In this document: piece after piece, positions 34,088 to 45,002 of the stretch | How the letters are laid out: each line of letters opens with the position of its first letter | How positions within the stretch are numbered: position 1 is the stretch's first letter | Origin: Actinomycetota bacterium | Lineage (GTDB): Bacteria > Actinomycetota > Humimicrobiia > Humimicrobiales > Humimicrobiaceae | Assembly: GCA_026392215.1 (NCBI GenBank) | Contig: JAPLCN010000144.1 | Coordinates: 1-51,010, forward strand | DNA length: 51,010 nucleotides | Direction: 5' to 3' | Notes under the pieces: generated by a model | Database searches by the model: none | Told to the model about the DNA's origin: nothing | The model's input: only the letters and a program-made list of their open reading frames with translations | Made by a program: the position numbers and the translations under genes

Positions 34088-34440
34088 GGGGGCGTTTTGG
34101 ATTCGACAGGGGTAGATTGAGCTTAGATGGCAAACCGAGTACCAGAGACTCGTAAAACGCTGGAACAAAAATAAACGCAAACAAAAGCGAATTAGCTTTA
34201 GCTGCCTAAACGCAGCTAACGTCCTTTAAGAGTTTCCTTCACTTTTAAAAGGGCGCCGTTAGAAGGATACCTTTTTAAGGAGCGGCCGTTTCCTTAAAAG
34301 AAGGGAAAATTAAAACAGCATAGCAATGAAAGATACTGTTCATGTGATTTTTCAAAGCGAAAATTAGACATGAACTATGTTTGTAGAAGTTTAAGTGCCA
34401 TTGTCTTTGGACGCGGGTTCGACTCCCGCCGCCTCCACCA
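34088..34440 (+). ncRNA. ssrA: tmRNA; tag reading frame ANKSELALAA* at 34177-34209
   Basis: 5' GGGGGCGTTTTGGATTCGAC; 3' GGTTCGACTCCCGCCGCCTCCACCA; acceptor stem with a G3.U wobble; tag ends in LAA. Confidence 0.97.
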
Positions 34441-34511
34441 TGAACTGATTGCATTTGGATATAAGATCTATCATGCCTGAGCGTCAACTTCTATGGTTTG
34501 TCTGCCCTTAA

Positions 34512-34533
34512 TGTCACGGATTTGTCACGGATT
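34512..34533 (+). repeat. 11-bp tandem direct repeat TGTCACGGATT x2 (possible integrase arm-type site)
   Basis: Exact tandem repeat about 70 bp downstream of the ssrA 3' end. Confidence 0.55.
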
Positions 34534-34568
34534 AACTTAAGGTTATAAGAGAGAGGTAAGGAAAATAA

Positions 34569-34901
34569 ATGAAAGTTAAAAACATTATTTTAAGAGGATT
34601 ATATCAATCACTTGGCCTTGCAACTTATTGTATTCTTGTTGTAGTTATTATGAGCAATCTGCCTAAACTATTTACTTCTAATCCAGGTGTAACAAATAAT
34701 CTATTACAGGGCTTTATGTTTTTGATTATCTTTCTTGTAAGTGCATTAATCACAGGCTCAATTGCCTTGGCGTATCCTATATCTTTAGCTTTTAGGAAAA
34801 ATATAAAGGAAGCTGCATTTATTGTTTTATCTACTGTATTATGGTCAATTTTATTTTTAATAATTGCTTTGGTTACAGCTATTATTATATATAAACCTTA
34901 A
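34569..34901 (+). CDS. Small integral membrane protein (about 3 TM), unknown function
   Basis: SD GAGG/AAGGA; hydrophobic segments. Confidence 0.75.
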   Translation: MKVKNIILRGLYQSLGLATYCILVVVIMSNLPKLFTSNPGVTNNLLQGFMFLIIFLVSALITGSIALAYPISLAFRKNIKEAAFIVLSTVLWSILFLIIALVTAIIIYKP

Positions 34902-34909
34902 CTTTCATT

Positions 34910-34986
34910 TGGCTGCCCCAAGGTGTGAAATTTCGAACCAAATTTTAAGAGAATTAATTGATTTAAAAGATCTGTTCAGTAATTAA
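34910..34986 (+). repeat. Divergent att-like/tail site A
   Basis: TGGCTGCCCC...TTCGAACC shares the TGGCTG start and a (C/A)GAAC at the same offset as sites B-D; otherwise divergent. Confidence 0.45.
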
Positions 34987-35005
34987 ATAATATAAATGTC
35001 CGCTT

Positions 35006-35086
35006 TGGCTGGTCACCATACGCAATGTCAGAAACAAATTTTTGTTATTAAGTGAAGATATCTTTATACCCGAATTGAGTTTTTAA
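35006..35086 (+). repeat. 81-bp start-less coding-tail repeat, copy B (WLVTIRNVRNKFLLLSEDIFIPELSF*)
   Basis: Aligns without gaps to 38274-38354 and 39216-39296. Confidence 0.85.
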
Positions 35087-35247
35087 AGTTTTTACTTCAT
35101 TGTTTGAATTTGAAATATTCTTTTATCATTTAAAAAAATAATCTAAAACTAAAACTTCCCAAAAATATTTACATTAAAATCTTATTTATATAAAAAACGT
35201 CTAATAGATTGCGATAATTAGTAAAAATAAATTGAATGAGATAGCAA

Positions 35248-35685
35248 ATGGAAGATAAGAAAAACAAAATCTATATATTCACTCTTGTTATTTTCTGGAT
35301 TATATTTGCGTTCTTTATTTTAAATGTATCCAGTATGTATCTACCCTTTATTCCATTTATAGGATTTATAGGCCTACCTTTTAATGCTGCAATATCCTTA
35401 TTGGGAATAGCACTTATTGTTTTAGTGGTAAGAGCAAAGATTACAAAGATTTCAAGGGCTTTCTTTATACTAACAGGGTCATCTGCAGTAGGTATTGGTT
35501 TTGGAGCTTATTTACACAATCTTGTATTTGCTCTTTTTATAAAACTATTTGGGGAAAGTTTCTGGGCAGGTATGGGAGATGAACCAGTATTTTTTATTTT
35601 AGCAACAATAGTGTGCCCAATAGCATTACTGGTTGGTGCAATCGGTAGTATGGTTTTTATAGCAAAGAAAAAAGTTATAGCATAA
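35248..35685 (+). CDS. Integral membrane protein (about 4 TM), unknown function
   Basis: Hydrophobic ORF with HNLV and DEPVFF motifs. Confidence 0.8.
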   Translation: MEDKKNKIYIFTLVIFWIIFAFFILNVSSMYLPFIPFIGFIGLPFNAAISLLGIALIVLVVRAKITKISRAFFILTGSSAVGIGFGAYLHNLVFALFIKLFGESFWAGMGDEPVFFILATIVCPIALLVGAIGSMVFIAKKKVIA

Positions 35686-35860
35686 AAAAAGCTATATATA
35701 AATTTATTGATAAATAGAAAATATGAAAAGTAGTTTAAATTAAGTTTTAACAATTGTTAGTAATAATTTAATAAAAATTACAAAGGAGATAGTTTTAAAT
35801 ATTTACAATCCTTATTAAATGATAACAGTCGTAAGAACCTGGTATAAAGTGAGGTAGCAA

Positions 35861-36841
35861 GTGCCAATAGGACAGAAATCAACCTTCAGTAGTGATGTTC
35901 GGGAAGCTGGAAATCGACCCTTGAGCAGCAAAAATATTCATATCGGGTTTAGAGAAGCCAAATGGGAAAGGGTTCGATTTTACACCCTATTTGCTTGGCG
36001 CTTTATTGTACTGCGACGTCTGGAACCGCTCTTCTACGGTATTGCGGTGACGGATCGTTGCAACCTTGGATGCCGTGGTTGTAAAGTTTCAAATACCGGT
36101 CGTCCTGACATGACGTGGGACCAGCTTATCAATACGATGCAGAACGCATGGAGACGTGGATTCCGTGAGTTGTACTTTAGCGGCGGAGAACCGATGCTGT
36201 GGTGTGATGGAGTACGTACTCTGGAGGATGCAGTTGTTGAGGCAAGGCGGATAGGTTTTTTCCATGTACACGTTTATACAAACGGTACACTCGGACTCGA
36301 TATCCCGGCTGACCTTGTTTGGGTTAGTATGGACGGGCTTCCTGGTACTTTCGAGATGAGACGAGGTAATCATTTCAATCAAGTCGAACATGCAGTCCGC
36401 AAGAATCAGAACCGGAAGATTGCAGTCATATATGTCATTGATAGCAACACCAACAATGGTGTTGAACCATTTTTACAATGGGTGAGTGAAACAAAGTTTC
36501 CTATTATTGGTGTAATGTTCTATTTTCATACACCATATTATGGACTCGATGAGCTGTTCCTTACAGCTGAAGAGCGTGCACCGATAATCGACCGTCTTCT
36601 TGGTTATAAACGAGCGGGGCTGCCAATAATCAACTCGAGAGCTGGACTTCTAGCACTAAAGTCCGGCAACTGGCCGAGGCGTTTATCTGTTACCTATGTA
36701 GCGGATATCGATGGTGAGTATGTCTGCTGTCGTGCGTCAGATGACATATGTGTGAACTGCGGTTACGCCGCCTGCACCGAGATTACGGAGTTTCGACGTC
36801 TACGACCAAGTGCTATACTAGGCATGAGGAGATATTTGTGA
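35861..36841 (+). CDS. Radical SAM protein with Cys-rich C-terminus (higher GC, horizontally acquired)
   Basis: TDRCNLGCRGC, FSGGEP, YTNGT, VSMDG; C-terminal CCR...CVNCGYAAC. Start uncertain. Confidence 0.85.
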   Translation: MPIGQKSTFSSDVREAGNRPLSSKNIHIGFREAKWERVRFYTLFAWRFIVLRRLEPLFYGIAVTDRCNLGCRGCKVSNTGRPDMTWDQLINTMQNAWRRGFRELYFSGGEPMLWCDGVRTLEDAVVEARRIGFFHVHVYTNGTLGLDIPADLVWVSMDGLPGTFEMRRGNHFNQVEHAVRKNQNRKIAVIYVIDSNTNNGVEPFLQWVSETKFPIIGVMFYFHTPYYGLDELFLTAEERAPIIDRLLGYKRAGLPIINSRAGLLALKSGNWPRRLSVTYVADIDGEYVCCRASDDICVNCGYAACTEITEFRRLRPSAILGMRRYL

Positions 36842-38133
36842 GTAAGTGCGGCAACATATTATCGCAAATTGTAACGCGCGCCATACGCCGCTGCCTCGTT
36901 GGCCCTAATCAACAATGGCGCTTTGATCCGCCCCCGCAGGACTGGACACCTCCGCCTGTAAAACAAACCTCGCTGTATCTGCATGTACCCTTCTGCCGTA
37001 ACTGCTGTCCATACTGCCCTTATACCAAAGTAACTTATGATGAAATGTTGGTAGGCCCCTATACGCAGGCTGCTCTTGCAGAGGTCAACTGGTGGGCTGA
37101 TAAAATTGGGCATGCTGAAATAACGAGTATTTATATCGGCGGTGGCACTCCAACGCTTGCGTTGGACAGTGTAGCAAGAATACTAACACTAATACGTAAA
37201 AAATTCCGCCTGACGGGTGATATATGTATTGAGACAAATCCCTCTGACGTGGATGATATTACGATACAGAAATTACATGATTCAAATGTCTCACTTGTTT
37301 CACTTGGTGTGCAATCATTTCGTTCCGAGAACCTTAAGGTTATAGGACGCAATTATGAATCAACCGTTGCAGAGCACGCACTTACCCTGCTCGTCAATGG
37401 CGGCTTTGCCTCGGTTAACGTGGATCTTATGTTCGCTTTGCCTGGCCAGACAGTTGGCGATGTGATTAAAGATCTTGCCAAAGCTACCAAGCTTGGAGCA
37501 AGTCAGATCACTACATACCCGCTCTTCACATTTCCTTATACATCGATAGGTAGATACCTAAACCTGACATCAGTGCGTATGCCGGACCTGCGAGTTCGTA
37601 GGTCGCACTACCGGGCAATTACCGAGTGGTGTGTGGAACATGATTTCAAACGAGTGTCTGTGTGGGGGTTCAAACGTGGTGCCGTTCCTCGTTACTCTTC
37701 AGTTACAAGGGATAGCTATATCGGTATTGGTCCTGGTGCTGGTTCGCACCTGCCAGATGAATTTGTGATAAACACATTCGATCTCAATAGCTGGATACAC
37801 GTAATGTGTGAAGGACGTACAGCAATCGCTCTGCGAATGCCGTTTACTGTTGAGATGTCTAATTGGTGGTGGTTGTACTGGCGCTTTTATGATACACGAA
37901 TACCAATGGACTGCTTCAAAGCGTACTTCGGTAAAGAAACCCGCAAAGCTCACCGCTTATTTAGAGTCATGGAGCTGATCGGATTCGCGGTACATAACGA
38001 GGGATATCTTGAACTCACAGAGCCGGGTGCGTTTTGGCTTCACCTTGTGCAAAATCACTTCGCGCTAAGTTACATCAACACATTGTGGACCCAAGCACGA
38101 CGTGTCCCGTGGCCGCAGACGGTTGTTATCTAA
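36838..38133 (+). CDS. HemN/HemW-like (class C) radical SAM protein
   Basis: LYLHVPFCRNCCPYCPY, YIGGGTPT, ETNP, SLGVQSF, DLMFALP. GTG 36838 follows SD GAGGAG and overlaps the upstream stop (GTGA). Confidence 0.88.
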   Translation: MSKCGNILSQIVTRAIRRCLVGPNQQWRFDPPPQDWTPPPVKQTSLYLHVPFCRNCCPYCPYTKVTYDEMLVGPYTQAALAEVNWWADKIGHAEITSIYIGGGTPTLALDSVARILTLIRKKFRLTGDICIETNPSDVDDITIQKLHDSNVSLVSLGVQSFRSENLKVIGRNYESTVAEHALTLLVNGGFASVNVDLMFALPGQTVGDVIKDLAKATKLGASQITTYPLFTFPYTSIGRYLNLTSVRMPDLRVRRSHYRAITEWCVEHDFKRVSVWGFKRGAVPRYSSVTRDSYIGIGPGAGSHLPDEFVINTFDLNSWIHVMCEGRTAIALRMPFTVEMSNWWWLYWRFYDTRIPMDCFKAYFGKETRKAHRLFRVMELIGFAVHNEGYLELTEPGAFWLHLVQNHFALSYINTLWTQARRVPWPQTVVI

Positions 38134-38273
38134 GAATACCATTCAGGATAACTTGGGTAGGTTTTCTGTTAAATCATCAAAAGCAAAAAATATTTTCTAT
38201 GAGATTGTTCTAGTAAATTGACAAGCAAACTATTCCTTTTTTGGGTTAGATATCCTTGACAAATGTGTCTTAC

Positions 38274-38354
38274 TGGCTGGGGATAGTGGACAATGTTAGA
38301 ACTGCAATATTGAGCTTAAATGAGGATATTTTTATACCAGAATTGAGTTTTTAA
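38274..38354 (+). repeat. 81-bp start-less coding-tail repeat, copy C (WLGIVDNVRTAILSLNEDIFIPELSF*)
   Basis: Aligns to copies B and D; ends GAATTGAGTTTTTAA in all three. Confidence 0.85.
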
Positions 38355-38399
38355 CTATTAAACTAAACTTTTTCCAAATGATGAGATTCATATCAAATT

Positions 38400-38672
38400 T
38401 CATTCAAGAAAATTTAAAAGCTGTTTTATTTCCAGGTCATTTCCTGTCGTAATTGTTGTAACCATTACAGCACGACTTGTTTCCCTTACTTTCTTATATG
38501 CCTTAAATATTATGCTGTATAGCTTATCTTCATTGTCAGACCAGGCTATGGTACTGAGGGGCGTTATTTTAAAATCAATATTTTCATTTTTCAGAATATC
38601 CCAGAAAACTTTTAATTTACTTTCAATATCTTTTTCACCAATAGGATAAAGGCTTACTTGGATTGCAATCAT
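38400..38672 (-). CDS. YkoF/thiamine-binding-protein-like ferredoxin-fold protein
   Basis: QVSLYP...ITPLSTI...VMVTTI pattern; SD AAAGGT. Confidence 0.65.
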   Translation of the reverse strand: MIAIQVSLYPIGEKDIESKLKVFWDILKNENIDFKITPLSTIAWSDNEDKLYSIIFKAYKKVRETSRAVMVTTITTGNDLEIKQLLNFLE

Positions 38673-38973
38673 TTTTTTAATTTACCTTTCACTTAAAATT
38701 ATTCTTGCTCTCATAACTGATGAGACCTTCCTTTCTCTTTTTTAGGTCCTCATCAGCTTATTTTAACTTAAGTTATTTTAGTATACAATGTGTCCAAGGG
38801 AGTGGGTTCACTCCAGGGGTTGATGAAGATGGACCTTTAAAAAATTAAGTAGTCTATAGTAGCAAACGTATGATGAGGTTAAATGGAGTATTCCGCTCCG
38901 CATGGGTGCAGATCTATCAAATATTTATTATGTTATAATTTATACCTATTATTATTTGTTTTTGGAAAAAAAT

Positions 38974-39204
38974 ATGAATGAAAAAAAAGAATTTTTATAT
39001 TTTATTGAAGTAAAAGAAAAGAATGGTAATAGAGCCAAATATCCTGTTTATAAAGATAATGAAAAATACTATATTAATGATCACCCTGTTAAGATCGGTA
39101 AAGGCATAGAAGATGAGATTAAAGATTTTTTTGAAGCAGAAGTGATTGGACCGATATTGGAAAAATCTGTTCATCAGGATTTGAAGTTTAAAGATATAAA
39201 ATAA
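38974..39204 (+). CDS. Hypothetical protein
   Basis: ORF with host-like composition; ATG 38974 preferred over 38902. Confidence 0.55.
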   Translation: MNEKKEFLYFIEVKEKNGNRAKYPVYKDNEKYYINDHPVKIGKGIEDEIKDFFEAEVIGPILEKSVHQDLKFKDIK

Positions 39205-39215
39205 TCAAGGTTATA

Positions 39216-39296
39216 TGGCTGGCCACAGTACGCAATGTTAGAACCAGAATATTTAGATTAAATGAAGATCTTTTTATCCCTGAATTGAGTTTTTAA
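39216..39296 (+). repeat. 81-bp start-less coding-tail repeat, copy D (WLATVRNVRTRIFRLNEDLFIPELSF*)
   Basis: Aligns to copies B and C; begins 11 bp after the preceding stop codon. Confidence 0.85.
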
Positions 39297-39389
39297 CTAA
39301 TCCCTATTATGCTTTACTAAATATATATAATTTCAATATTGAAATTTTTTTACATATTTAATAATAAATTAGAGATTAAAGGATTTATA

Positions 39390-39890
39390 GTGAAAGAAAT
39401 ATTTGAAAGGCGAAGCATAAGAAAATATTCAAAATTACCTATACCTGATGATTACATTGAAAAACTACTTAGAGCTGCAATGGCTGCTCCTTCAGCAGGA
39501 AATCAGCAACCCTGGGAATTTATACTCATCAAAGATAAAAACATTCTAACTGATATAACAAAGGTGCATCCTTACTCTCAAATGTTAAAAGAGGCTGCAT
39601 TGGCGATAGTGATTTGTGCTGATTTAGACAAAGAAAAACACGGTGGTTGTTGGGTACAAGACTGTTCGGCTGCGACAGAGAATATTCTAATTGAAGCACA
39701 GCATTTAGGGCTTGGTTCAGTATGGCTTGGTGTTTATCCAAGAGAAGATAGAGTTAAAGGATTAAAAGAATTGTTTAACCTTCCTGAAAGAGTAGTGCCA
39801 TTATCAATTGTCTCATTAGGATATCCAGCGGAAAAAAAAGATCCTTCTAATAGGTATGATAAATTAAGAGTTCACATAAATAAATGGTAA
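39390..39890 (+). CDS. Nitroreductase family flavoprotein
   Basis: RRSIRKY, APSAGNQQPW, DCSAATENIL, GLGSVWLG, LGYP; GTG 39390 after AAAGGA. Confidence 0.92.
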   Translation: MKEIFERRSIRKYSKLPIPDDYIEKLLRAAMAAPSAGNQQPWEFILIKDKNILTDITKVHPYSQMLKEAALAIVICADLDKEKHGGCWVQDCSAATENILIEAQHLGLGSVWLGVYPREDRVKGLKELFNLPERVVPLSIVSLGYPAEKKDPSNRYDKLRVHINKW

Positions 39891-39964
39891 ATTTATGATG
39901 GGTTTGTTTGGCGTAGTATTTGTATTAATTTTCAATATCCTAAATTATTAAAACCAGAGGAAAA

Positions 39965-40011
39965 TTGACTTAATTTAAAGTGTTATATATTATTTATACT
40001 AAACATATAGG
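39965..40011 (+). promoter_or_regulatory. Sigma70-type promoter with downstream candidate Rrf2 operator
   Basis: TTGACT-N17-TATTAT, then ACTA-N5-ATAGG at 39998-40011. Confidence 0.55.
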
Positions 40012-40041
40012 ATAACTGATGTTCTTGTGAGGTAATAACAG

Positions 40042-40488
40042 ATGAAAATTTCCACAAAGGGAAGATATGGATTAAGAGCTTTATTAGACCTTGCAACAAA
40101 TTATAATGGTCAATATATAGCATTAAAAACCATCGCAAAAAGACTGGAAGTTTCGGAAGATTATCTTGAGCAGGTATTTTCAATACTTAGAAAGGCCAAT
40201 CTTGTAAAAAGTATTAAAGGTTCTCAAGGTGGATATACCCTAACTAATGATCCTTCAAAAATGACAATTGGTTCTATTCTACGGACGCTGGAAGGTGATT
40301 TATCAGTTGTAAATAATACAATTGATGAAAAAAAATATGACAATGCTGTAGATTATTGCCTTAAAATAAATGTATGGGATAAAATTAACAAAAATGTCAA
40401 TAGGCTTATTGAATCAATGACTTTGGAGGATCTTGTCAATAAATATAAAATTATAAATCATGATAACTCACCTATGTTTTATATTTAA
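40042..40488 (+). CDS. Rrf2 family regulator, CymR-like (no Fe-S Cys triad)
   Basis: STKGRYGL, YLEQVF..L, SIKGSQGGY; only one Cys. Confidence 0.9.
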   Translation: MKISTKGRYGLRALLDLATNYNGQYIALKTIAKRLEVSEDYLEQVFSILRKANLVKSIKGSQGGYTLTNDPSKMTIGSILRTLEGDLSVVNNTIDEKKYDNAVDYCLKINVWDKINKNVNRLIESMTLEDLVNKYKIINHDNSPMFYI

Positions 40489-40634
40489 TTTACTCAAGAG
40501 ATTTTGGAATAATATAAGTCTATTCTAATAACATTTTTCAATCTAATTAAAGTATAGGATTTAGACAGTTAACCTGTTTTTTTAAATTATTAAAAATAAA
40601 AATTAATATACCTGTAATTGGCAGGTGAATAATA

Positions 40635-41084
40635 ATGAAATTATCTACAAAAGGAACTTATGGAATGAAAGCGATTCTTGATCTTGCATTACATTCTGAT
40701 GGAAATCCTGTTGCAATTAAAAGTATCGCTGAAAGGCAGAATATCTCTGAAAATTATCTAGAACAACTATTTGCAATACTTAGAAAATCAGGGTTACTCC
40801 AAAGCATTAGAGGTGCTCAAGGAGGATATATCCTGGCAAAAAATCCTGGAAAAATAACTGCTGGTTTGATATTAAGAATTTTAGAAGGTTCGCTGGCACC
40901 TGTCCATTGTGTGGAAGAAAATAAACCGGCAGCCTGTAATAGATCCGAAAATTGCATTACAAAGTATGTTTGGGCAGAAATAAGAGACAAAATTTATGAT
41001 GTGGTTGACTCCATAACCTTAGCAGATCTTGTCGAAGAATATAATAAACAAGAATCTGATAAAGACTTCATGTATCATATTTAA
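40635..41084 (+). CDS. Rrf2 family regulator, IscR-like (three Cys)
   Basis: STKGTYG, YLEQLF, SIRGAQGGY, VHCVEENKPAACNRSENC. Confidence 0.9.
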   Translation: MKLSTKGTYGMKAILDLALHSDGNPVAIKSIAERQNISENYLEQLFAILRKSGLLQSIRGAQGGYILAKNPGKITAGLILRILEGSLAPVHCVEENKPAACNRSENCITKYVWAEIRDKIYDVVDSITLADLVEEYNKQESDKDFMYHI

Positions 41085-41104
41085 TTTTTTTAATTATATA
41101 TACA

Positions 41105-41194
41105 ACTATACCTATAGGAAAAATAATTTTTTTTAAAATAATGTTGACATCCCCTATCTATAATAATAAAATAAAATACAACTAAAATGATAGG
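41105..41194 (+). promoter_or_regulatory. Sigma70-type promoter flanked by two candidate Rrf2 operators
   Basis: TTGACA(41144)-N17-TAAAAT; ACTA-N5-ATAGG at 41105-41118 and 41181-41194. Confidence 0.6.
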
Positions 41195-41293
41195 TATTAT
41201 TATATATAAAATATAAGTAAATAATATTGAAGCGTAAACTGCAAAAATAATTAGGCTAGGGATATTTATTTTTCAGAAAGGAAAGACCGGATT

Positions 41294-42658
41294 ATGGGTA
41301 TCGCATATAATAACATACTTGAAACTATCGGAAGAACTCCTTTAGTAAAATTAAATAATATTACAAAAAATATAAAATCAAAAATATATGTCAAGGTAGA
41401 ATATTTTAATCCAGGTGGAAGTGTTAAAGACAGAGTTGGCATATCAATGATTGAAGCGGCAGAAAAAGAAGGTCTTTTAAAACTCGGGGGCACTATAATT
41501 GAAGCCACGGCAGGAAATACCGGTGTTGGTATTGCAATAGCTGCTTCTATAAAGAAATACAGGACAATTTTTATACTTCCTGACAAAATGAGTGAAGATA
41601 AGATTGCATTATTAAAAGCTTACGGAGCAGAAGTTATAATAACTCCCACATCTGTTCCGCCGGATTCACCTGAAAGTTATAATGGAGTAGCAGAAAGGCT
41701 TTCTAAAGAAATCAAAGGAGCATTCAGGCCAAATCAATTCATGAATAAATATAATCCTATTGCTCACTATTTAACAACTGGACCTGAAATATGGGAAGAT
41801 ACTGAAGGTAAAATAGATGTTTTTGTAGCAGGGATTGGAACTGGCGGCACTATTTCAGGAATCGGTAAATATTTAAAAGAAAAAAATCCAAATATAATAA
41901 TTATAGGGGCTGATCCGGAAGGTTCAATATTATCCGGAGATTCTCCAAAACCTTTTAAAGTTGAAGGTATTGGTGAAGATTTTATTCCAAAAACATTTAA
42001 TAACCAGATAGTTGATGAAATGATCAGAATAAGCGATAAGGAATCATTTAATACGGCCAGAGAACTGGCAAGGCTGGAAGGTTTACTTGTGGGTGGTTCA
42101 TCTGGCACAGCAGTAGCTGCTGCTATAAAATTTGCCCGCAGACTTGATGTTTCAAAATATATAGTAGCTCTTTTACCTGATACAGGCAGAAATTATATGA
42201 ATAAAATATTTTCAGATAAATGGATGCTGGAAAATGGTTTTTTCGAAAAAAATGTATCAAAAACAAAGAAAATCAAAAATATACTTGAAAGTAAAATAGA
42301 TTTTCCAAAAATTATTTCAATCAGCTCCACAGAACCATTAGTAAATGCAATCAATATAATAAAGAAGTATAGCATTTCGCAACTACCTGTTATTGATGAT
42401 AAAAAACTTGTCGGAAGTTTAAATGAAGCTTCAATCATGAAGATAGTTAAAGATAATTCAAATTATCCAGGTCAAAAAATTGCGTCAGTAATGGGTAAAC
42501 CATTGCCAAAGCTGGATGAAGACCTGGATGTCTTAGAAGCATATAGAATTCTTTTAACAGATGCTTCAGGCATAGTAGTTACAAGAGAAAATATACCGGT
42601 TAGCGTAATAACCAGAACAGATCTAATTAATTTTTGGCTCATAGAAGGTGAAAAATGA
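41294..42658 (+). CDS. Cystathionine beta-synthase with C-terminal CBS pair
   Basis: NPGGSVKDR, EATAGNTG, GIGTGGT, VEGIGEDF, GGSSG; CBS domains (ISQLPV; ITRTDL). Confidence 0.9.
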   Translation: MGIAYNNILETIGRTPLVKLNNITKNIKSKIYVKVEYFNPGGSVKDRVGISMIEAAEKEGLLKLGGTIIEATAGNTGVGIAIAASIKKYRTIFILPDKMSEDKIALLKAYGAEVIITPTSVPPDSPESYNGVAERLSKEIKGAFRPNQFMNKYNPIAHYLTTGPEIWEDTEGKIDVFVAGIGTGGTISGIGKYLKEKNPNIIIIGADPEGSILSGDSPKPFKVEGIGEDFIPKTFNNQIVDEMIRISDKESFNTARELARLEGLLVGGSSGTAVAAAIKFARRLDVSKYIVALLPDTGRNYMNKIFSDKWMLENGFFEKNVSKTKKIKNILESKIDFPKIISISSTEPLVNAINIIKKYSISQLPVIDDKKLVGSLNEASIMKIVKDNSNYPGQKIASVMGKPLPKLDEDLDVLEAYRILLTDASGIVVTRENIPVSVITRTDLINFWLIEGEK

Positions 42659-43791
42659 AATTTGAAACAAAAGCTATTCACTTTGGTCAAAAACCAGATT
42701 TTGCGACTGGAGCTGTAACAGTTCCGGTTTATCAAACTTCAACTTATGAACAGGAAGCTATTGGAAAGCATAAAGGTTATGAATATTCAAGAACAGATAA
42801 TCCAACAAGGAAAGTCCTGGAAACCGTTGTTGCTGTGTTGGAAAACGGGGAATATGGCGTTGCTTTTGCATCAGGTCTGGCTGCTGAAACTGCAGTGTTT
42901 CAACTTCTGAAGAATGGCGATCATGTAATAGCAGGAGCAGATATATACGGCGGAACTTACAGGTTGCTGGAAAAAGTATTTAAACCATGGGGGTTAGAGG
43001 TAAGCTTTGTAGATGTTGATGATATTAATAATTTTAAACAGGCTATTAAAAAAAATACCAGACTTATCTGGATTGAAACTCCAACCAATCCTCTTTTAAA
43101 AATAATAAGCATTAAAAAGTTATCAGAAATATCAAAAAACAATAAAATAATTTTTGCTGTTGATAATACGTTTGCAAGTCCTTATTTCCAAAGGCCATTA
43201 AATTTTGGAGCAGATATTGTTGTTCACAGTACAACCAAATATATCTCCGGACACAGTGATATAATTGGCGGAGCTGTAGTAACTTCCAGCAAACAAATCT
43301 ATGAAAATATAAAATTTTACCAAAATGCTGCCGGAGCTGTTCCTGGTCCATGGGATTGCTGGCTAATATTGCGCGGTATAAAAACATTGGCAATAAGAAT
43401 GAAAGAACATGGGAAAAATGCGCTGTATTTAGCGAAACATCTGGAAAAGCATCCTGAAGTTGAAAGAGTATACTACCCGGGTTTGGAAAACAATGATGGT
43501 TATGGAATTGCTAAAGGACAAATGAAAGGTTTCGGCGGTATGGTTAGTTTTGAAATAAAAGGTGGATTTGAAGATACCCAAAAATTTATTTCAAAACTTA
43601 AAATATTTACTTTGGGAGAAAGTCTGGGAGGCGTTGAATCACTTGTGAGCTGCCCTTCAAAAATGACCCATTCCTCAATTCCTTTAAAAGAAAGAGAAAG
43701 GTTAGGGATTAAAGATAATTTAATCAGGCTTTCAATTGGAATTGAAAATAAAAAAGATTTACTTGAGGATTTACTGCAAGCTTTAGAATAA
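42655..43791 (+). CDS. Cystathionine gamma-lyase/synthase (Cys/Met metabolism PLP enzyme)
   Basis: YQTST, YSRTDNPTR, ETPTNP, DNTF, HSTTKYISGHSD, ESLGGVES, RLSIGIE; ATGA coupling to the upstream gene. Confidence 0.93.
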   Translation: MKFETKAIHFGQKPDFATGAVTVPVYQTSTYEQEAIGKHKGYEYSRTDNPTRKVLETVVAVLENGEYGVAFASGLAAETAVFQLLKNGDHVIAGADIYGGTYRLLEKVFKPWGLEVSFVDVDDINNFKQAIKKNTRLIWIETPTNPLLKIISIKKLSEISKNNKIIFAVDNTFASPYFQRPLNFGADIVVHSTTKYISGHSDIIGGAVVTSSKQIYENIKFYQNAAGAVPGPWDCWLILRGIKTLAIRMKEHGKNALYLAKHLEKHPEVERVYYPGLENNDGYGIAKGQMKGFGGMVSFEIKGGFEDTQKFISKLKIFTLGESLGGVESLVSCPSKMTHSSIPLKERERLGIKDNLIRLSIGIENKKDLLEDLLQALE

Positions 43792-44055
43792 TAAATATAT
43801 AAATTTATTAAGTAACTTTGTCAGATTATTTCTTGTCATTAAATTCATTCGCAATATAATAATTATAGAATTATACGAATTTTTAAAATATACAGAAAGG
43901 CAACTCCTGAAGTAATAAATAAAGCCTGTAATTTTGAATTTGCTATTTTTGCTCTGGTACAATAAAAAACTAGCTTCCCACTTAAAAAAATCAAAAATAT
44001 CTGTTATAGTTTTAGAATTTATTTTTTTAATAATTACTTACAAATTTATTTCATA

Positions 44056-44880
44056 ATGGATCAGAAAAAAATTTATAATCATGCAAAGATTTCAAAAGAT
44101 TACGCCCGGCGTGATTATCTTGATAAAGCAGAGCAACAGATAATTGAAGAATTAAAGAACGTGCTGCCAAAATTTAATATGCTTGATATGGGCGTGGGCG
44201 GCGGCAGGACTACAGGATATTTTCTGGCTCTTGTTAACAGTTATATAGGCGCTGATTATGCTCCCAATATGATAGCAGAGTGCAAAAAAAAGTTTAAAAA
44301 CAAGAAAGTCTTTGAAGTGCTGGACGTTCGCAACATGTCAAAATTCAGCGACAACATGTTTGATTTCATACTGTTTAGCTATAACGGAATTGACAGTTTT
44401 GGATTAAAAGACAGAGAAACAGCGCTAAAGGAAATAAAGAGAGTTTTAAAAAATGGCGGCTATTACTCTTTTTCATCCCATAACATAAACTGGAAAGGCT
44501 TGTATAATCTTTTTACATTCAGAAATATTTATACAAAATTAGTTAATAAAGCAGATAATGGAAAGAATTTATTATCAAAATTCATTATATTTTTAGAAGC
44601 AGTTTTTATAAACATATGGCTTAATTTCCAAAATAAAAGCTTCAATATTAAATTTCATATTGACCGCTTAAGAAAAGAAGGACAGGGAAATTTAACAGAT
44701 AATTCATTAAATGGAAAAGCAAAAATATTTTATACATCTTACAAATCTCAAATTCTGCAATTAACAAAATCCGGATTTAAAAATATTTCTGCTTATTCAA
44801 TAAACGGCATAAAAACTCGAGATGAAAATGAACTTAACCAGGGCGGATGGATTTATTATTTATGCCAGATCGAAAAATAA
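44056..44880 (+). CDS. Class I SAM-dependent methyltransferase
   Basis: LDMGVGGGRT, DY, FDFILFSYNGID, RVLKNGG. Confidence 0.88.
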   Translation: MDQKKIYNHAKISKDYARRDYLDKAEQQIIEELKNVLPKFNMLDMGVGGGRTTGYFLALVNSYIGADYAPNMIAECKKKFKNKKVFEVLDVRNMSKFSDNMFDFILFSYNGIDSFGLKDRETALKEIKRVLKNGGYYSFSSHNINWKGLYNLFTFRNIYTKLVNKADNGKNLLSKFIIFLEAVFINIWLNFQNKSFNIKFHIDRLRKEGQGNLTDNSLNGKAKIFYTSYKSQILQLTKSGFKNISAYSINGIKTRDENELNQGGWIYYLCQIEK

Positions 44881-45002
44881 ATTTTATTTTGTATTCTGCC
44901 ACAACCGATATTAAATGCCTTTTAATTGATAAATATCGCTATTAAATTATAATTATTAACTAAAGTCGTTATTTTAATAATAAATTTTTAAGAAAGTATA
45001 AA

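What the first reader, a model, noticed from the sequence alone, without database searches (positions are those of the whole stretch)
34910..39296. Array of start-less, codon-conserved C-terminal tails separating cargo genes: possible recombinase-driven cassette array
Seen: three ungapped 81-bp copies (35006, 38274, 39216) read WL-x4-NVR-x7-ED(I/L)FIPELSF-stop. In the conserved positions the differences are mostly synonymous (GTC/GTT/GTT, GAA/GAG/GAA, ATA/ATA/ATC, CCC/CCA/CCT). Similarity begins abruptly at TGG, in-frame stops lie 6-9 codons upstream, and no SD-supported start is present. A fourth, divergent site lies at 34910. Unrelated cargo sits between the sites (membrane proteins, a higher-GC radical SAM pair, a YkoF-like gene, a hypothetical), and two genes end only 8 and 11 bp before a site. 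Inference: these are 3' ends of a gene whose frame crosses its own att site, as I recall for some large serine recombinases (W-L-x...R-T tails). Successive integrations would leave them as an integron-like array, and recombination at TGG would swap the protein tail. No recombinase is present in the window.
Basis: partly seen in the sequence, partly recalled or inferred. Interest (0 to 1): 0.76.

Follow-up and report, generated by a model that had tools for sequence, protein, structure and literature searches.

The report
Stranded serine-recombinase gene tails marking cassettes
The repeated start-less "tails" are the detached last 26 codons of a large serine recombinase gene that spans its own attachment site, left behind each time a mobile element docked at a tRNA-Gln-type site, so they mark the borders of accumulated cargo modules in an uncultured actinobacterial lineage.

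Summary
The 81-nt unit is a lineage-wide repeat: at least 17 copies in the window's genome and matches in 60 of 79 genomes of its family. It is never the end of a long ORF in those chromosomes. Public proteins supply the missing body. They are large serine recombinases (LSRs) of 531-558 aa with Resolvase, Recombinase and zinc-ribbon domains, and they share one sequence up to a Trp-Leu pair and then diverge. Some carry this tail, one carries the window's fourth, divergent tail type, and most carry the antisense reading of the tRNA-Gln 3' end. The first 10 bases of the tail are the reverse complement of the tRNA-Gln 3' end. Tail arrays end at tRNA-Gln genes or fragments of them. A distal motif sits 5 bp further out in the tail than in the tRNA, which is the published attP/attB half-site geometry of LSRs. 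The tails are therefore attL-type junctions of tRNA-Gln-targeting LSR elements, stacked in one orientation around short cargo modules that lack a recombinase. The window and its genome hold no such LSR. The closest published case is the Dehalococcoides ssrA islands (DsiB). This scan noted the same design before in other genomes, mostly CPR. How the arrays grow, and whether stranded tails are still used, is inferred.

The parts
34088..34440 (+). tmRNA gene (ssrA). It is the left conserved flank of the variable ssrA-to-murI interval and is not the docking site of these tails.
   Evidence: ARAGORN and Rfam. Homology with same-genus genomes stops at its 3' end. Contigs from other samples diverge right after 34440/34441.
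34910..35005 (+). Second tail type. It has a 12-codon stranded tail plus stop at 34910-34948, followed by a conserved stretch that runs up to the next tail.
   Evidence: It is multi-copy in the genome and genus and has a sharp 5' border in contigs from four samples. Its reading matches the C-terminus of the full-length recombinase P0034.
35006..35086 (+). Stranded recombinase tail 1 (26 codons plus stop). Its first ~30 nt are a P-type half-site.
35087..38273 (.). Cargo module 1: a membrane protein (35248-35685) and two radical SAM genes (35861-36841 and about 36841-38133), with higher GC.
38274..38354 (+). Stranded recombinase tail 2. Its first 10 nt equal the reverse complement of the tRNA-Gln 3' end.
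38355..39215 (.). Cargo module 2: a weak YkoF-like gene (38400-38672, minus strand), an unrelated multi-copy hairpin repeat (about 38673-38820) and a hypothetical gene (38902-39204).
39216..39296 (+). Stranded recombinase tail 3.
39297..45002 (.). Segment between the last tail and murI: nitroreductase, two Rrf2 regulators, a PALP-CBS enzyme, a Cys/Met PLP enzyme and a methyltransferase. Whether it is cargo of the last module is open, because no tRNA-Gln fragment closes it.
   Evidence: The same smpB-ssrA...murI-rph frame with different content and one tail is seen in G058.

Best explanation
Each 81-nt unit is the detached 3' end of a large serine recombinase (LSR) gene whose reading frame runs across its own attachment site. 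In the free, circular element the recombinase ORF ends with this 26-residue tail. The crossover lies at or beside the Trp-Leu codons where all copies begin. The target is the 3' end of a tRNA-Gln gene on the opposite strand, which has the same first 10 bases. Integration joins the body of the recombinase gene to the tRNA, so the ORF then ends in about 20 antisense-tRNA codons. The native tail is stranded at the far end of the element as an attL-type junction. Repeated docking at the same tRNA, loss of the recombinase genes, and carrying along or copying of older modules leave one-directional arrays of [tail + 0-3 cargo genes]. The window holds four such tails in the ssrA-to-murI hot spot and no recombinase. 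Three things are shown here: the tail is part of an LSR protein family, tails are swapped at Trp-Leu, and arrays are anchored on tRNA-Gln and polar. Three things are inferred: the order of events that builds arrays, the reuse of stranded tails as excision partners that restore the ORF, and how this particular array came to lie away from a tRNA-Gln gene.
For: (1) A phmmer search with the 32-aa ORF at 38256-38351 against 1.84 billion proteins gave 24 hits. Three of them carry a conserved stretch in front of the tail. (2) Searching with that stretch found LSRs of 531-558 aa, and Pfam confirms Resolvase + Recombinase + Zn_ribbon_recom in P0038, P0028, P0034 and P0036. (3) I inspected 19 family members and fragments. 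All agree up to Trp-Leu except the most distant one (P0036), which has Trp-Gly at that point. After it, 9 continue with the antisense reading of the tRNA-Gln end, 5 with this tail, 1 with the window's 34910-type tail, 2 with tail-like variants and 2 with other sequence. (4) P0030, which carries the tail, aligns with P0036 at 39% identity over 376 aa, through to residue 398 of 400. (5) In genomes of the class, intact LSRs overlap tRNA-Gln antisense with Trp-Leu at the junction (G065, G026). Relatives do the same at tRNA-Asn. A fragment in G083 joins the recombinase end to a 24-nt tRNA-Gln piece. (6) Only the two tRNA-Gln genes of the 45 tRNAs in the genome end in the complement of the tail's first 10 nt. 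(7) Arrays end at tRNA-Gln genes on the opposite strand (own C63; G044:C5; G019:C2; metagenome L219, L245, L247) or at 24-25-nt tRNA-Gln fragments. (8) The distal conserved motif ends at base 30 in the tail and at base 25 in the tRNA. This 5-bp offset is the one described for P-type versus B-type half-sites of LSRs (PMC11722253, passages read). (9) Of 114 adjacent tail pairs, 0 are in opposite orientation. (10) Only 1 of 230 unique junctions still has the recombinase end in front of the tail.
Against: No complete integrated element of the close LSR type, with recombinase at tRNA-Gln and this tail at the far end, could be fetched. The best tail-bearing protein (P0030) lacks its catalytic N-terminus. 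Close LSR homologues in the 87 genomes of the class are only fragments (G003, G014, G024, G022, G083), and the window's genome has none. The window's array is not next to a tRNA-Gln gene or fragment. Canonical LSRs recombine only attP with attB, so stacking needs a tolerant outer half-site or a regenerated target, and this was not tested. Of 11 informative break points between shared modules, only 6 lie at bases 0-11 of the tail. The rest lie at about +43 to +77, which looks like homologous exchange within the repeat. The substitution pattern alone does not prove selection on the protein.
Confidence: 0.8

Rival explanations
1. The tails are inert scars. They are relics of past LSR integrations, have no present role, and look alike only because they descend from similar elements. 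The arrays are then shuffled by ordinary homologous recombination between the repeats.
For: No LSR of this family is in the window's genome. 13 of 88 full-length copies have a broken frame. 5 of 11 break points lie in the conserved 3' block, as homologous exchange would give. The contigs laid gave no clean excision junction.
Against: The unit is recognisable in 60 of 79 genomes across 16 genera, with near-invariant blocks, while the flanking DNA does not align. A recombinase-less module is duplicated at 98% identity within G044, and its left edge falls exactly at the first base of the tail. Three further pairs start identity at bases 0-1, too short a shared stretch for homologous recombination.
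Confidence: 0.3
2. The repeat is the recombination site of an integron-like or lambda-like system run by a tyrosine recombinase acting in trans, and its coding look is accidental.
For: The layout is cassette-like: 92 unique modules, median 1131 nt, cargo typical of accessory cassettes. The core is shared with a tRNA 3' end, as in many tyrosine-integrase islands.
Against: There is no consensus hairpin on either strand in 48 copies. None of the 127 cassette ORFs is a tyrosine recombinase. G019, in 7 contigs, has only two Xer-like genes. The small and the 296-aa tyrosine recombinases seen nearby are sporadic. The tail is demonstrably part of an LSR protein.
Confidence: 0.04
3. The unit is an independent small gene, a structured RNA or a MITE.
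For: It is short, multi-copy and dispersed. Gene callers report 29-48-aa ORFs on it.
Against: Most copies have no start codon, and some have an in-frame stop directly before the first codon. Rfam gives no match at E<=1 over 34450-39400. There is no conserved fold, and there are no terminal inverted repeats. Orientation within arrays is strictly uniform.
Confidence: 0.02

Closest known systems
Dehalococcoides ssrA-specific genomic islands with the serine recombinase DsiB (McMurdie et al. 2011, PMC3146451; passages read)
   Same: A serine recombinase of about 540 aa has a 3' end that always overlaps the attachment site and reads on into the target or the next island. Islands stack in tandem behind one small RNA gene and are bounded by direct repeats. 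Some islands lack the integration module and were proposed to be cis-mobilisable.
   Different: The target here is tRNA-Gln, not ssrA. What is left behind is an 81-nt, lineage-wide conserved tail homologous to the native C-terminus of the enzyme, where those authors found a 20-bp repeat with a divergent, presumably non-functional overlap. Modules are far shorter (median 1.1 kb, some empty at 122 nt) and nearly all lack a recombinase. No DsiA-like partner was looked for.
Phage-type large serine integrases (LI/A118, SPbeta, phiC31, Bxb1; PMC11722253, passages read)
   Same: The domain set is the same. Sites are short, and the outer motif lies 5 bp closer to the centre in the bacterial half-site than in the element half-site.
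   Different: In the textbook cases (recalled) attP lies outside the integrase ORF. Here it lies inside the ORF, so the protein's last 26 residues change on integration.
Tycheposon-built islands at tRNA genes in Prochlorococcus (bioRxiv 10.1101/2020.12.28.424599; passages read)
   Same: Islands are seeded at tRNA genes. Successive integrations push older elements outward. Partial tRNA copies and recombinase remnants are scattered in the island, and the cargo is adaptive.
   Different: Those elements mostly use tyrosine recombinases and about 40-nt partial tRNAs. Here the marker is a recombinase tail that shares only 10 nt with the tRNA.
SCCmec/SCC composite islands moved by Ccr serine recombinases (recalled; mentioned in PMC3146451)
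   Same: LSR-driven tandem accretion occurs at one chromosomal site and includes recombinase-less pseudo-elements bounded by the repeats.
   Different: The target is the 3' end of a protein gene, and the recombinase ORF does not span the site.
Integrons and CALIN arrays (Cury et al. 2016, PMC4889954; search listing only)
   Same: One-directional arrays of short cargo modules, each with one conserved site, often far from any recombinase.
   Different: There is no attC hairpin, no IntI, mixed gene orientation (78 same strand, 54 opposite) and often several genes per module.

Membership tests
Large serine recombinase (serine integrase) elements | N-terminal resolvase catalytic domain in the protein that owns the tail | tested here: inconclusive
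   PF00239 is present in P0038, P0028, P0034 and P0036, which share the pre-tail sequence. The two proteins that actually end in the type-1 tail (P0030, 400 aa; P0026, 174 aa) are N-terminally incomplete. P0034, which has the type-2 tail, has the domain.
Large serine recombinase (serine integrase) elements | Recombinase domain plus zinc-ribbon domain | tested here: met
   PF07508 and PF13408 are found in P0030 itself and in all full-length relatives.
Large serine recombinase (serine integrase) elements | Outer site motif about 5 bp closer to the centre in attB than in attP half-sites | tested here: met
   The motif ends at base 30 in tails and at base 25 in tRNA-Gln, counted from the shared first base. 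The rule is as stated in PMC11722253. Only the right-hand half-sites were compared.
Large serine recombinase (serine integrase) elements | Crossover at a central dinucleotide; attP x attB only; excision needs a directionality factor | not testable with these tools
   Needs biochemistry. Break points place exchange at bases 0-11 in 6 of 11 pairs.
DsiB-type islands (recombinase ORF overlapping its att site) | The recombinase stop codon lies beyond the attachment site, in the target or the neighbouring island | tested here: met
   The LSR ORFs of G065 and G026 end inside tRNA-Gln, and G018's ends inside tRNA-Asn. Alternative tails follow Trp-Leu.
DsiB-type islands (recombinase ORF overlapping its att site) | Integration at ssrA | tested here: not met
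   The shared core matches tRNA-Gln only. The tails in the window lie on the same strand as ssrA, which is the wrong orientation for an ssrA target.
tRNA-anchored genomic island | Intact target gene at one end, with repeats of its 3' end at module borders in the same orientation | tested here: met
   There were 0 opposite-orientation pairs among 114. This is not met for the window's own array, which has no tRNA-Gln at its end.
Integron | attC site that folds as an imperfect hairpin | tested here: not met
   The RNAalifold consensus energy is 0.0 on both strands for 48 copies.
Integron | Integron integrase (tyrosine recombinase) next to the array | tested here: not met
   None among 127 cassette ORFs. 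None flanks the arrays inspected. G019 has only two Xer-like genes.

The most novel reading that the evidence does not exclude
The tail swap may be a working switch and a capture device. With its native 26-residue tail (free element) the recombinase would be in one functional state. With the antisense-tRNA tail (integrated) it would be in another. Any stranded tail in an array could then serve as the excision partner that both restores a full-length enzyme and picks up all the cargo modules in between. On this reading a single active element could mobilise recombinase-less cassettes, giving a serine-recombinase counterpart of the integron.
Probability: 0.3. Interest if true: 0.8.

Novelty: new variant of a known kind. 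Interest (0 to 1): 0.6.

Why it matters
It explains a puzzling class of start-less but protein-like repeats as stranded ends of a recombinase gene. That gives annotators a marker for island borders in a poorly known, uncultured actinobacterial lineage (MAGs labelled Actinomycetota / Candidatus Humimicrobiales). It extends the design in which the recombinase gene spans its own site, published for Dehalococcoides ssrA islands, to tRNA-Gln and to very compact cassette arrays found in most genomes of a family. If the stranded tails are reused, the system would be a second route, independent of integrons, to assembling and moving short accessory-gene cassettes. The tail swap would also be a natural handle on the directionality of serine integrases, which are widely used as genome-engineering tools.

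Tried and rejected
(1) Structured RNA or DNA hairpin. There was no consensus structure on either strand. Rfam gave nothing at the gathering threshold or at E<=1 on 34450-39400.

Own-genome PF00589 hits are Xer-like or unrelated to the repeats. A small ~210-aa tyrosine recombinase sits beside restriction-modification genes and near a few tails but is sporadic. A mobile 296-aa Xer-like integrase occurs in only 12 genomes at 60% identity or more. A motif screen of 77 metagenome loci found no integrase.

(3) Other LSRs. The own-genome LSR on C54 and those of G044, G043 and G011 are only ~21% identical to the tail-owning family and do not end in the tail.

(4) Left-arm motifs. Five recurring motif families precede some tails and also abut tRNA-Gln, but 151 of 230 junctions have none. 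One family looks like a decayed recombinase end.

(5) Synteny at ssrA within the genus. Homology stops at the tmRNA 3' end, and relatives carry classical tmRNA-end repeats instead, so it was uninformative for these tails.

(6) Reads. 20 of the 24 listed runs, from 6 studies, hold the stretch or part of it. Four runs were laid as contigs. The modules are covered at flank-like depth. All joints have short sides (21-44 nt) and may come from other copies, so they give no verdict on excision.

(7) Viral contigs. There were 0 pattern hits and no LSR relative.

(8) Codon-position and stop-avoidance tests were inconclusive.

(9) A first protein search with the 26-aa alignment was rejected as too short.

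The questions were answered without typed letters.


Full report
THE OBSERVATION. A pattern built from their last 33 bases finds only these three places, against none in 100 shuffles. Each reads 26 codons and a stop. In-frame stops lie 6-9 codons upstream, and no long ORF leads into any copy. The gene ends 8 and 11 nt before a site, the higher GC of the radical SAM pair and the absence of a recombinase domain in the window ORFs all hold.

A LINEAGE-WIDE REPEAT. The window's genome (2.15 Mb, 207 contigs) has 11 full-length DNA matches and 17 by profile at E<1e-3. Many lie on short contigs near their ends. A six-frame search with a 26-column peptide profile found the unit in 62 of 87 genomes of the class: 60 of 79 in the family, 1 of 5 in one sister family and 0 of 2 in the other. 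In all 150 listed matches the open frame around the hit was 22-94 aa; 215 further matches were not listed. An exact pattern scan of one genome per prokaryote species gave 58 loci. Of these, 54 are in MAGs titled Actinomycetota, Actinobacteria, Actinomycetes or Candidatus Humimicrobiales, 3 are labelled Atribacterota and 1 Elusimicrobiota. The viral collection gave none.

WHAT THE UNIT IS NOT. It has no conserved fold on either strand and no Rfam match. The substitution pattern does not by itself prove protein-level selection. Entropy by codon position is 0.66/0.56/0.81 with permutation p=0.06, and the conserved columns use almost fixed codons. 75 of 88 full-length copies keep the frame and 13 do not. 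The number of copies with a stop (5 of 67) is what column composition predicts (6.8+-1.3).

ARRAYS AND THEIR ANCHOR. In better-assembled relatives the units form one-directional arrays with 0-3 cargo genes between them. Over all loci, none of 114 adjacent pairs is in opposite orientation. The 92 unique modules measure 100-6088 nt, median 1131. Seven are exactly 122 nt and hold no gene. One further zero-length interval, an artefact of overlapping profile hits, was dropped from that range. Genes run with the unit 78 times and against it 54 times. Pfam on 127 module ORFs found no tyrosine or serine recombinase. The cargo is accessory in type: HicAB, ParE, Fic, methyltransferases, ABC transporters, serine-hydrolase folds, catalase, MsrAB, flavodoxins, glyoxalases, regulators, channels and one IS21.

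The first 10 bases of the unit are the reverse complement of the last 10 bases of tRNA-Gln, and of no other of the genome's 45 tRNAs. Arrays end at a tRNA-Gln gene on the opposite strand in the own genome (C63), in G044:C5, in G019:C2 and in three metagenome contigs. Beside tRNA-Arg(CCU) or tRNA-Glu they end at 24-25-nt pieces of the tRNA-Gln 3' end. In several of the family's assemblies the contig stops at or within a few hundred bases of the tRNA-Gln 3' end. The same short motif families that precede some units also abut the tRNA end.

THE TURNING POINT. A phmmer search with the 32-aa ORF at 38256-38351 against 1.84 billion proteins returned mostly 29-48-aa ORFs. Three longer hits carried a conserved stretch in front of the tail. 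Searching with that stretch found large serine recombinases of 531-558 aa, some named by their sources as recombinase family proteins of Actinobacteria or Candidatus Humimicrobiaceae MAGs. Pfam confirmed Resolvase, Recombinase and zinc-ribbon domains.

I inspected 19 members and fragments. The sequences agree up to a Trp-Leu pair, except that the most distant one (P0036) has Trp-Gly at that point. After it, 9 continue with the residues encoded by the antisense strand of the tRNA-Gln 3' end and 5 with the window's tail. One continues with the tail type seen at 34910, 2 with tail-like variants and 2 with other sequence. The tail-bearing P0030 aligns with the distant full-length P0036 at 39% identity over 376 residues, right through the tail. 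The tail is therefore an ancestral part of the enzyme.

In genomes of the class, intact recombinases of the wider family overlap tRNA-Gln (G065, G026) or tRNA-Asn (G018) antisense, with Trp-Leu at the junction. A fragment in G083 links the recombinase end to a 24-nt tRNA-Gln piece.

SITE GEOMETRY. Counted from the shared first base, the distal conserved motif ends at base 30 in the tails and at base 25 in tRNA-Gln. Structural work on serine integrases states that the motif bound by the second DNA-binding domain lies 5 bp closer to the centre in attB than in attP (PMC11722253, passages read). The tail therefore starts with a P-type half-site and the tRNA end is the matching B-type half-site.

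MECHANISM. Shown: the tail belongs to an LSR gene that spans its attachment site, the tail is exchanged at Trp-Leu, the target is the tRNA-Gln 3' end, and stranded tails mark module borders. Inferred: integration leaves the native tail at the far end as an attL-type junction; later arrivals dock again at the tRNA and push older modules outward; and recombinase genes decay. Only 1 of 230 junctions keeps the recombinase end. Close homologues in the 87 genomes are fragments in five genomes, and the window's genome has none.

Stranded tails may still serve as excision partners, which would restore a full-length ORF and carry the intervening cargo. In favour, a recombinase-less module is duplicated at 98% identity within G044, starting exactly at the first base of its tail. 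Three more pairs start identity at bases 0-1 and three at bases 7-11. Against a purely site-specific picture, the remaining 5 of 11 break points lie at about +43 to +77, in the most conserved block, as homologous exchange would give.

UNEXPLAINED. The window's array lies in the ssrA-to-murI hot spot, which G058 also uses, on the same strand as ssrA. No tRNA-Gln gene or fragment lies to its right. How it got there, whether by a secondary site, a rearrangement or transfer as a block, is open. Canonical LSR rules do not allow docking into hybrid sites, so stacking needs a tolerant outer half-site. That fits the variable DNA beyond tRNA-Gln but was not tested. Contigs from four public runs gave no reliable excision joints.

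COMPARISON AND NOVELTY. The closest published case is the Dehalococcoides ssrA islands. Their authors wrote that the serine recombinase gene dsiB always overlaps attL at its 3' end, that islands stack in tandem, and that some may be cis-mobilisable (PMC3146451, passages read). The differences here are the tRNA-Gln target, a conserved 81-nt stranded tail homologous to the native C-terminus, and very short, almost always recombinase-less modules in most genomes of a family. Tycheposon islands share the logic of stacking at tRNAs. Integrons share only the layout.

This scan has described recombinase genes spanning their own site, and stranded tails, several times before in other genomes, mostly CPR. 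I looked those notes up only after reaching the reading here, and they agree with it. I found no paper on this lineage's mobile elements; the search for 'Humimicrobia' returned only survey papers (listing).

VERDICT. The unit is a new variant of a known kind, and interest is moderate to high.

Noticed in passing
window 38673-38820 (minus strand, upstream of the YkoF-like gene): An unrelated multi-copy element of about 140 nt with a strong hairpin (MFE -31.6 kcal/mol, z -2.8). Copies lie on at least seven other contigs of the genome and in all five same-genus genomes. It has sharp borders at 38702 and 38815 in contigs of other samples and no Rfam match.
   Followed up: partly
L133-L136 (G003:C199, G004:C206, G002:C60, G001:C351), just after ssrA: Same-genus genomes carry direct repeats of the tmRNA 3' end downstream of ssrA, and G002 has three tandem ~190-nt units. 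These are the signature of a different family of islands that targets ssrA in the same hot spot.
   Followed up: partly
L325 (G018:C85), L315 (G073:C61), L319 (G081:C49), L314 (G005:C18): Related large serine recombinases (26-38% identical to P0025) lie convergent with tRNA-Asn, tRNA-Ser and tRNA-Leu genes or with a tRNA-like end. Where the ORF is intact it reads into the tRNA with Trp-Leu at the junction. The design is therefore not limited to tRNA-Gln in this class.
   Followed up: partly
L028, L255 and other loci; seven modules of exactly 122 nt: Empty modules consist of one tail plus a conserved 41-nt stretch and then the next tail. They may be minimal site-only units or slippage products.
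   Followed up: no
G000:C34:44561-44700 and G000:C169:3540-3600: The last 15 nt of tRNA-Gln(CUG) are duplicated in tandem directly beside the gene. On C169 the first 14 nt of a tail are duplicated 45 nt upstream of it.
   Followed up: no
L138, L139, L143 (G044, G043): A 296-aa Xer-like tyrosine recombinase is 86-95% identical between two genera and multi-copy in G044. It looks like a separate, recently spreading element, sitting beside defence-like genes.
   Followed up: partly
L147 (G000:C78:3411-4031), G000:C92, G000:C93; L140, L141, L144: A ~210-aa tyrosine recombinase occurs in several copies with a conserved downstream gene. In G043 it lies directly in front of a type I restriction-modification operon.
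   Followed up: partly
window 38902-39204 and L072:3241-3495 (G044:C6): The hypothetical gene of cargo module 2 has a recognisable homologue, similar at its N-terminus, at the edge of the G044 array. The same small cargo gene therefore recurs in arrays of different genera.
   Followed up: no
G000:C57 end and G000:C63 end: The two contig ends share 80 nt plus the first 12 nt of a tail and then diverge. This is an assembly fork at a tail and suggests strain variants that differ in the module behind tRNA-Gln(UUG).
   Followed up: partly
G000:C9:592-1890: An ORF with a reverse-transcriptase-like N-terminus (group II intron type, judged by eye) lies 3 kb from a tail copy.
   Followed up: no
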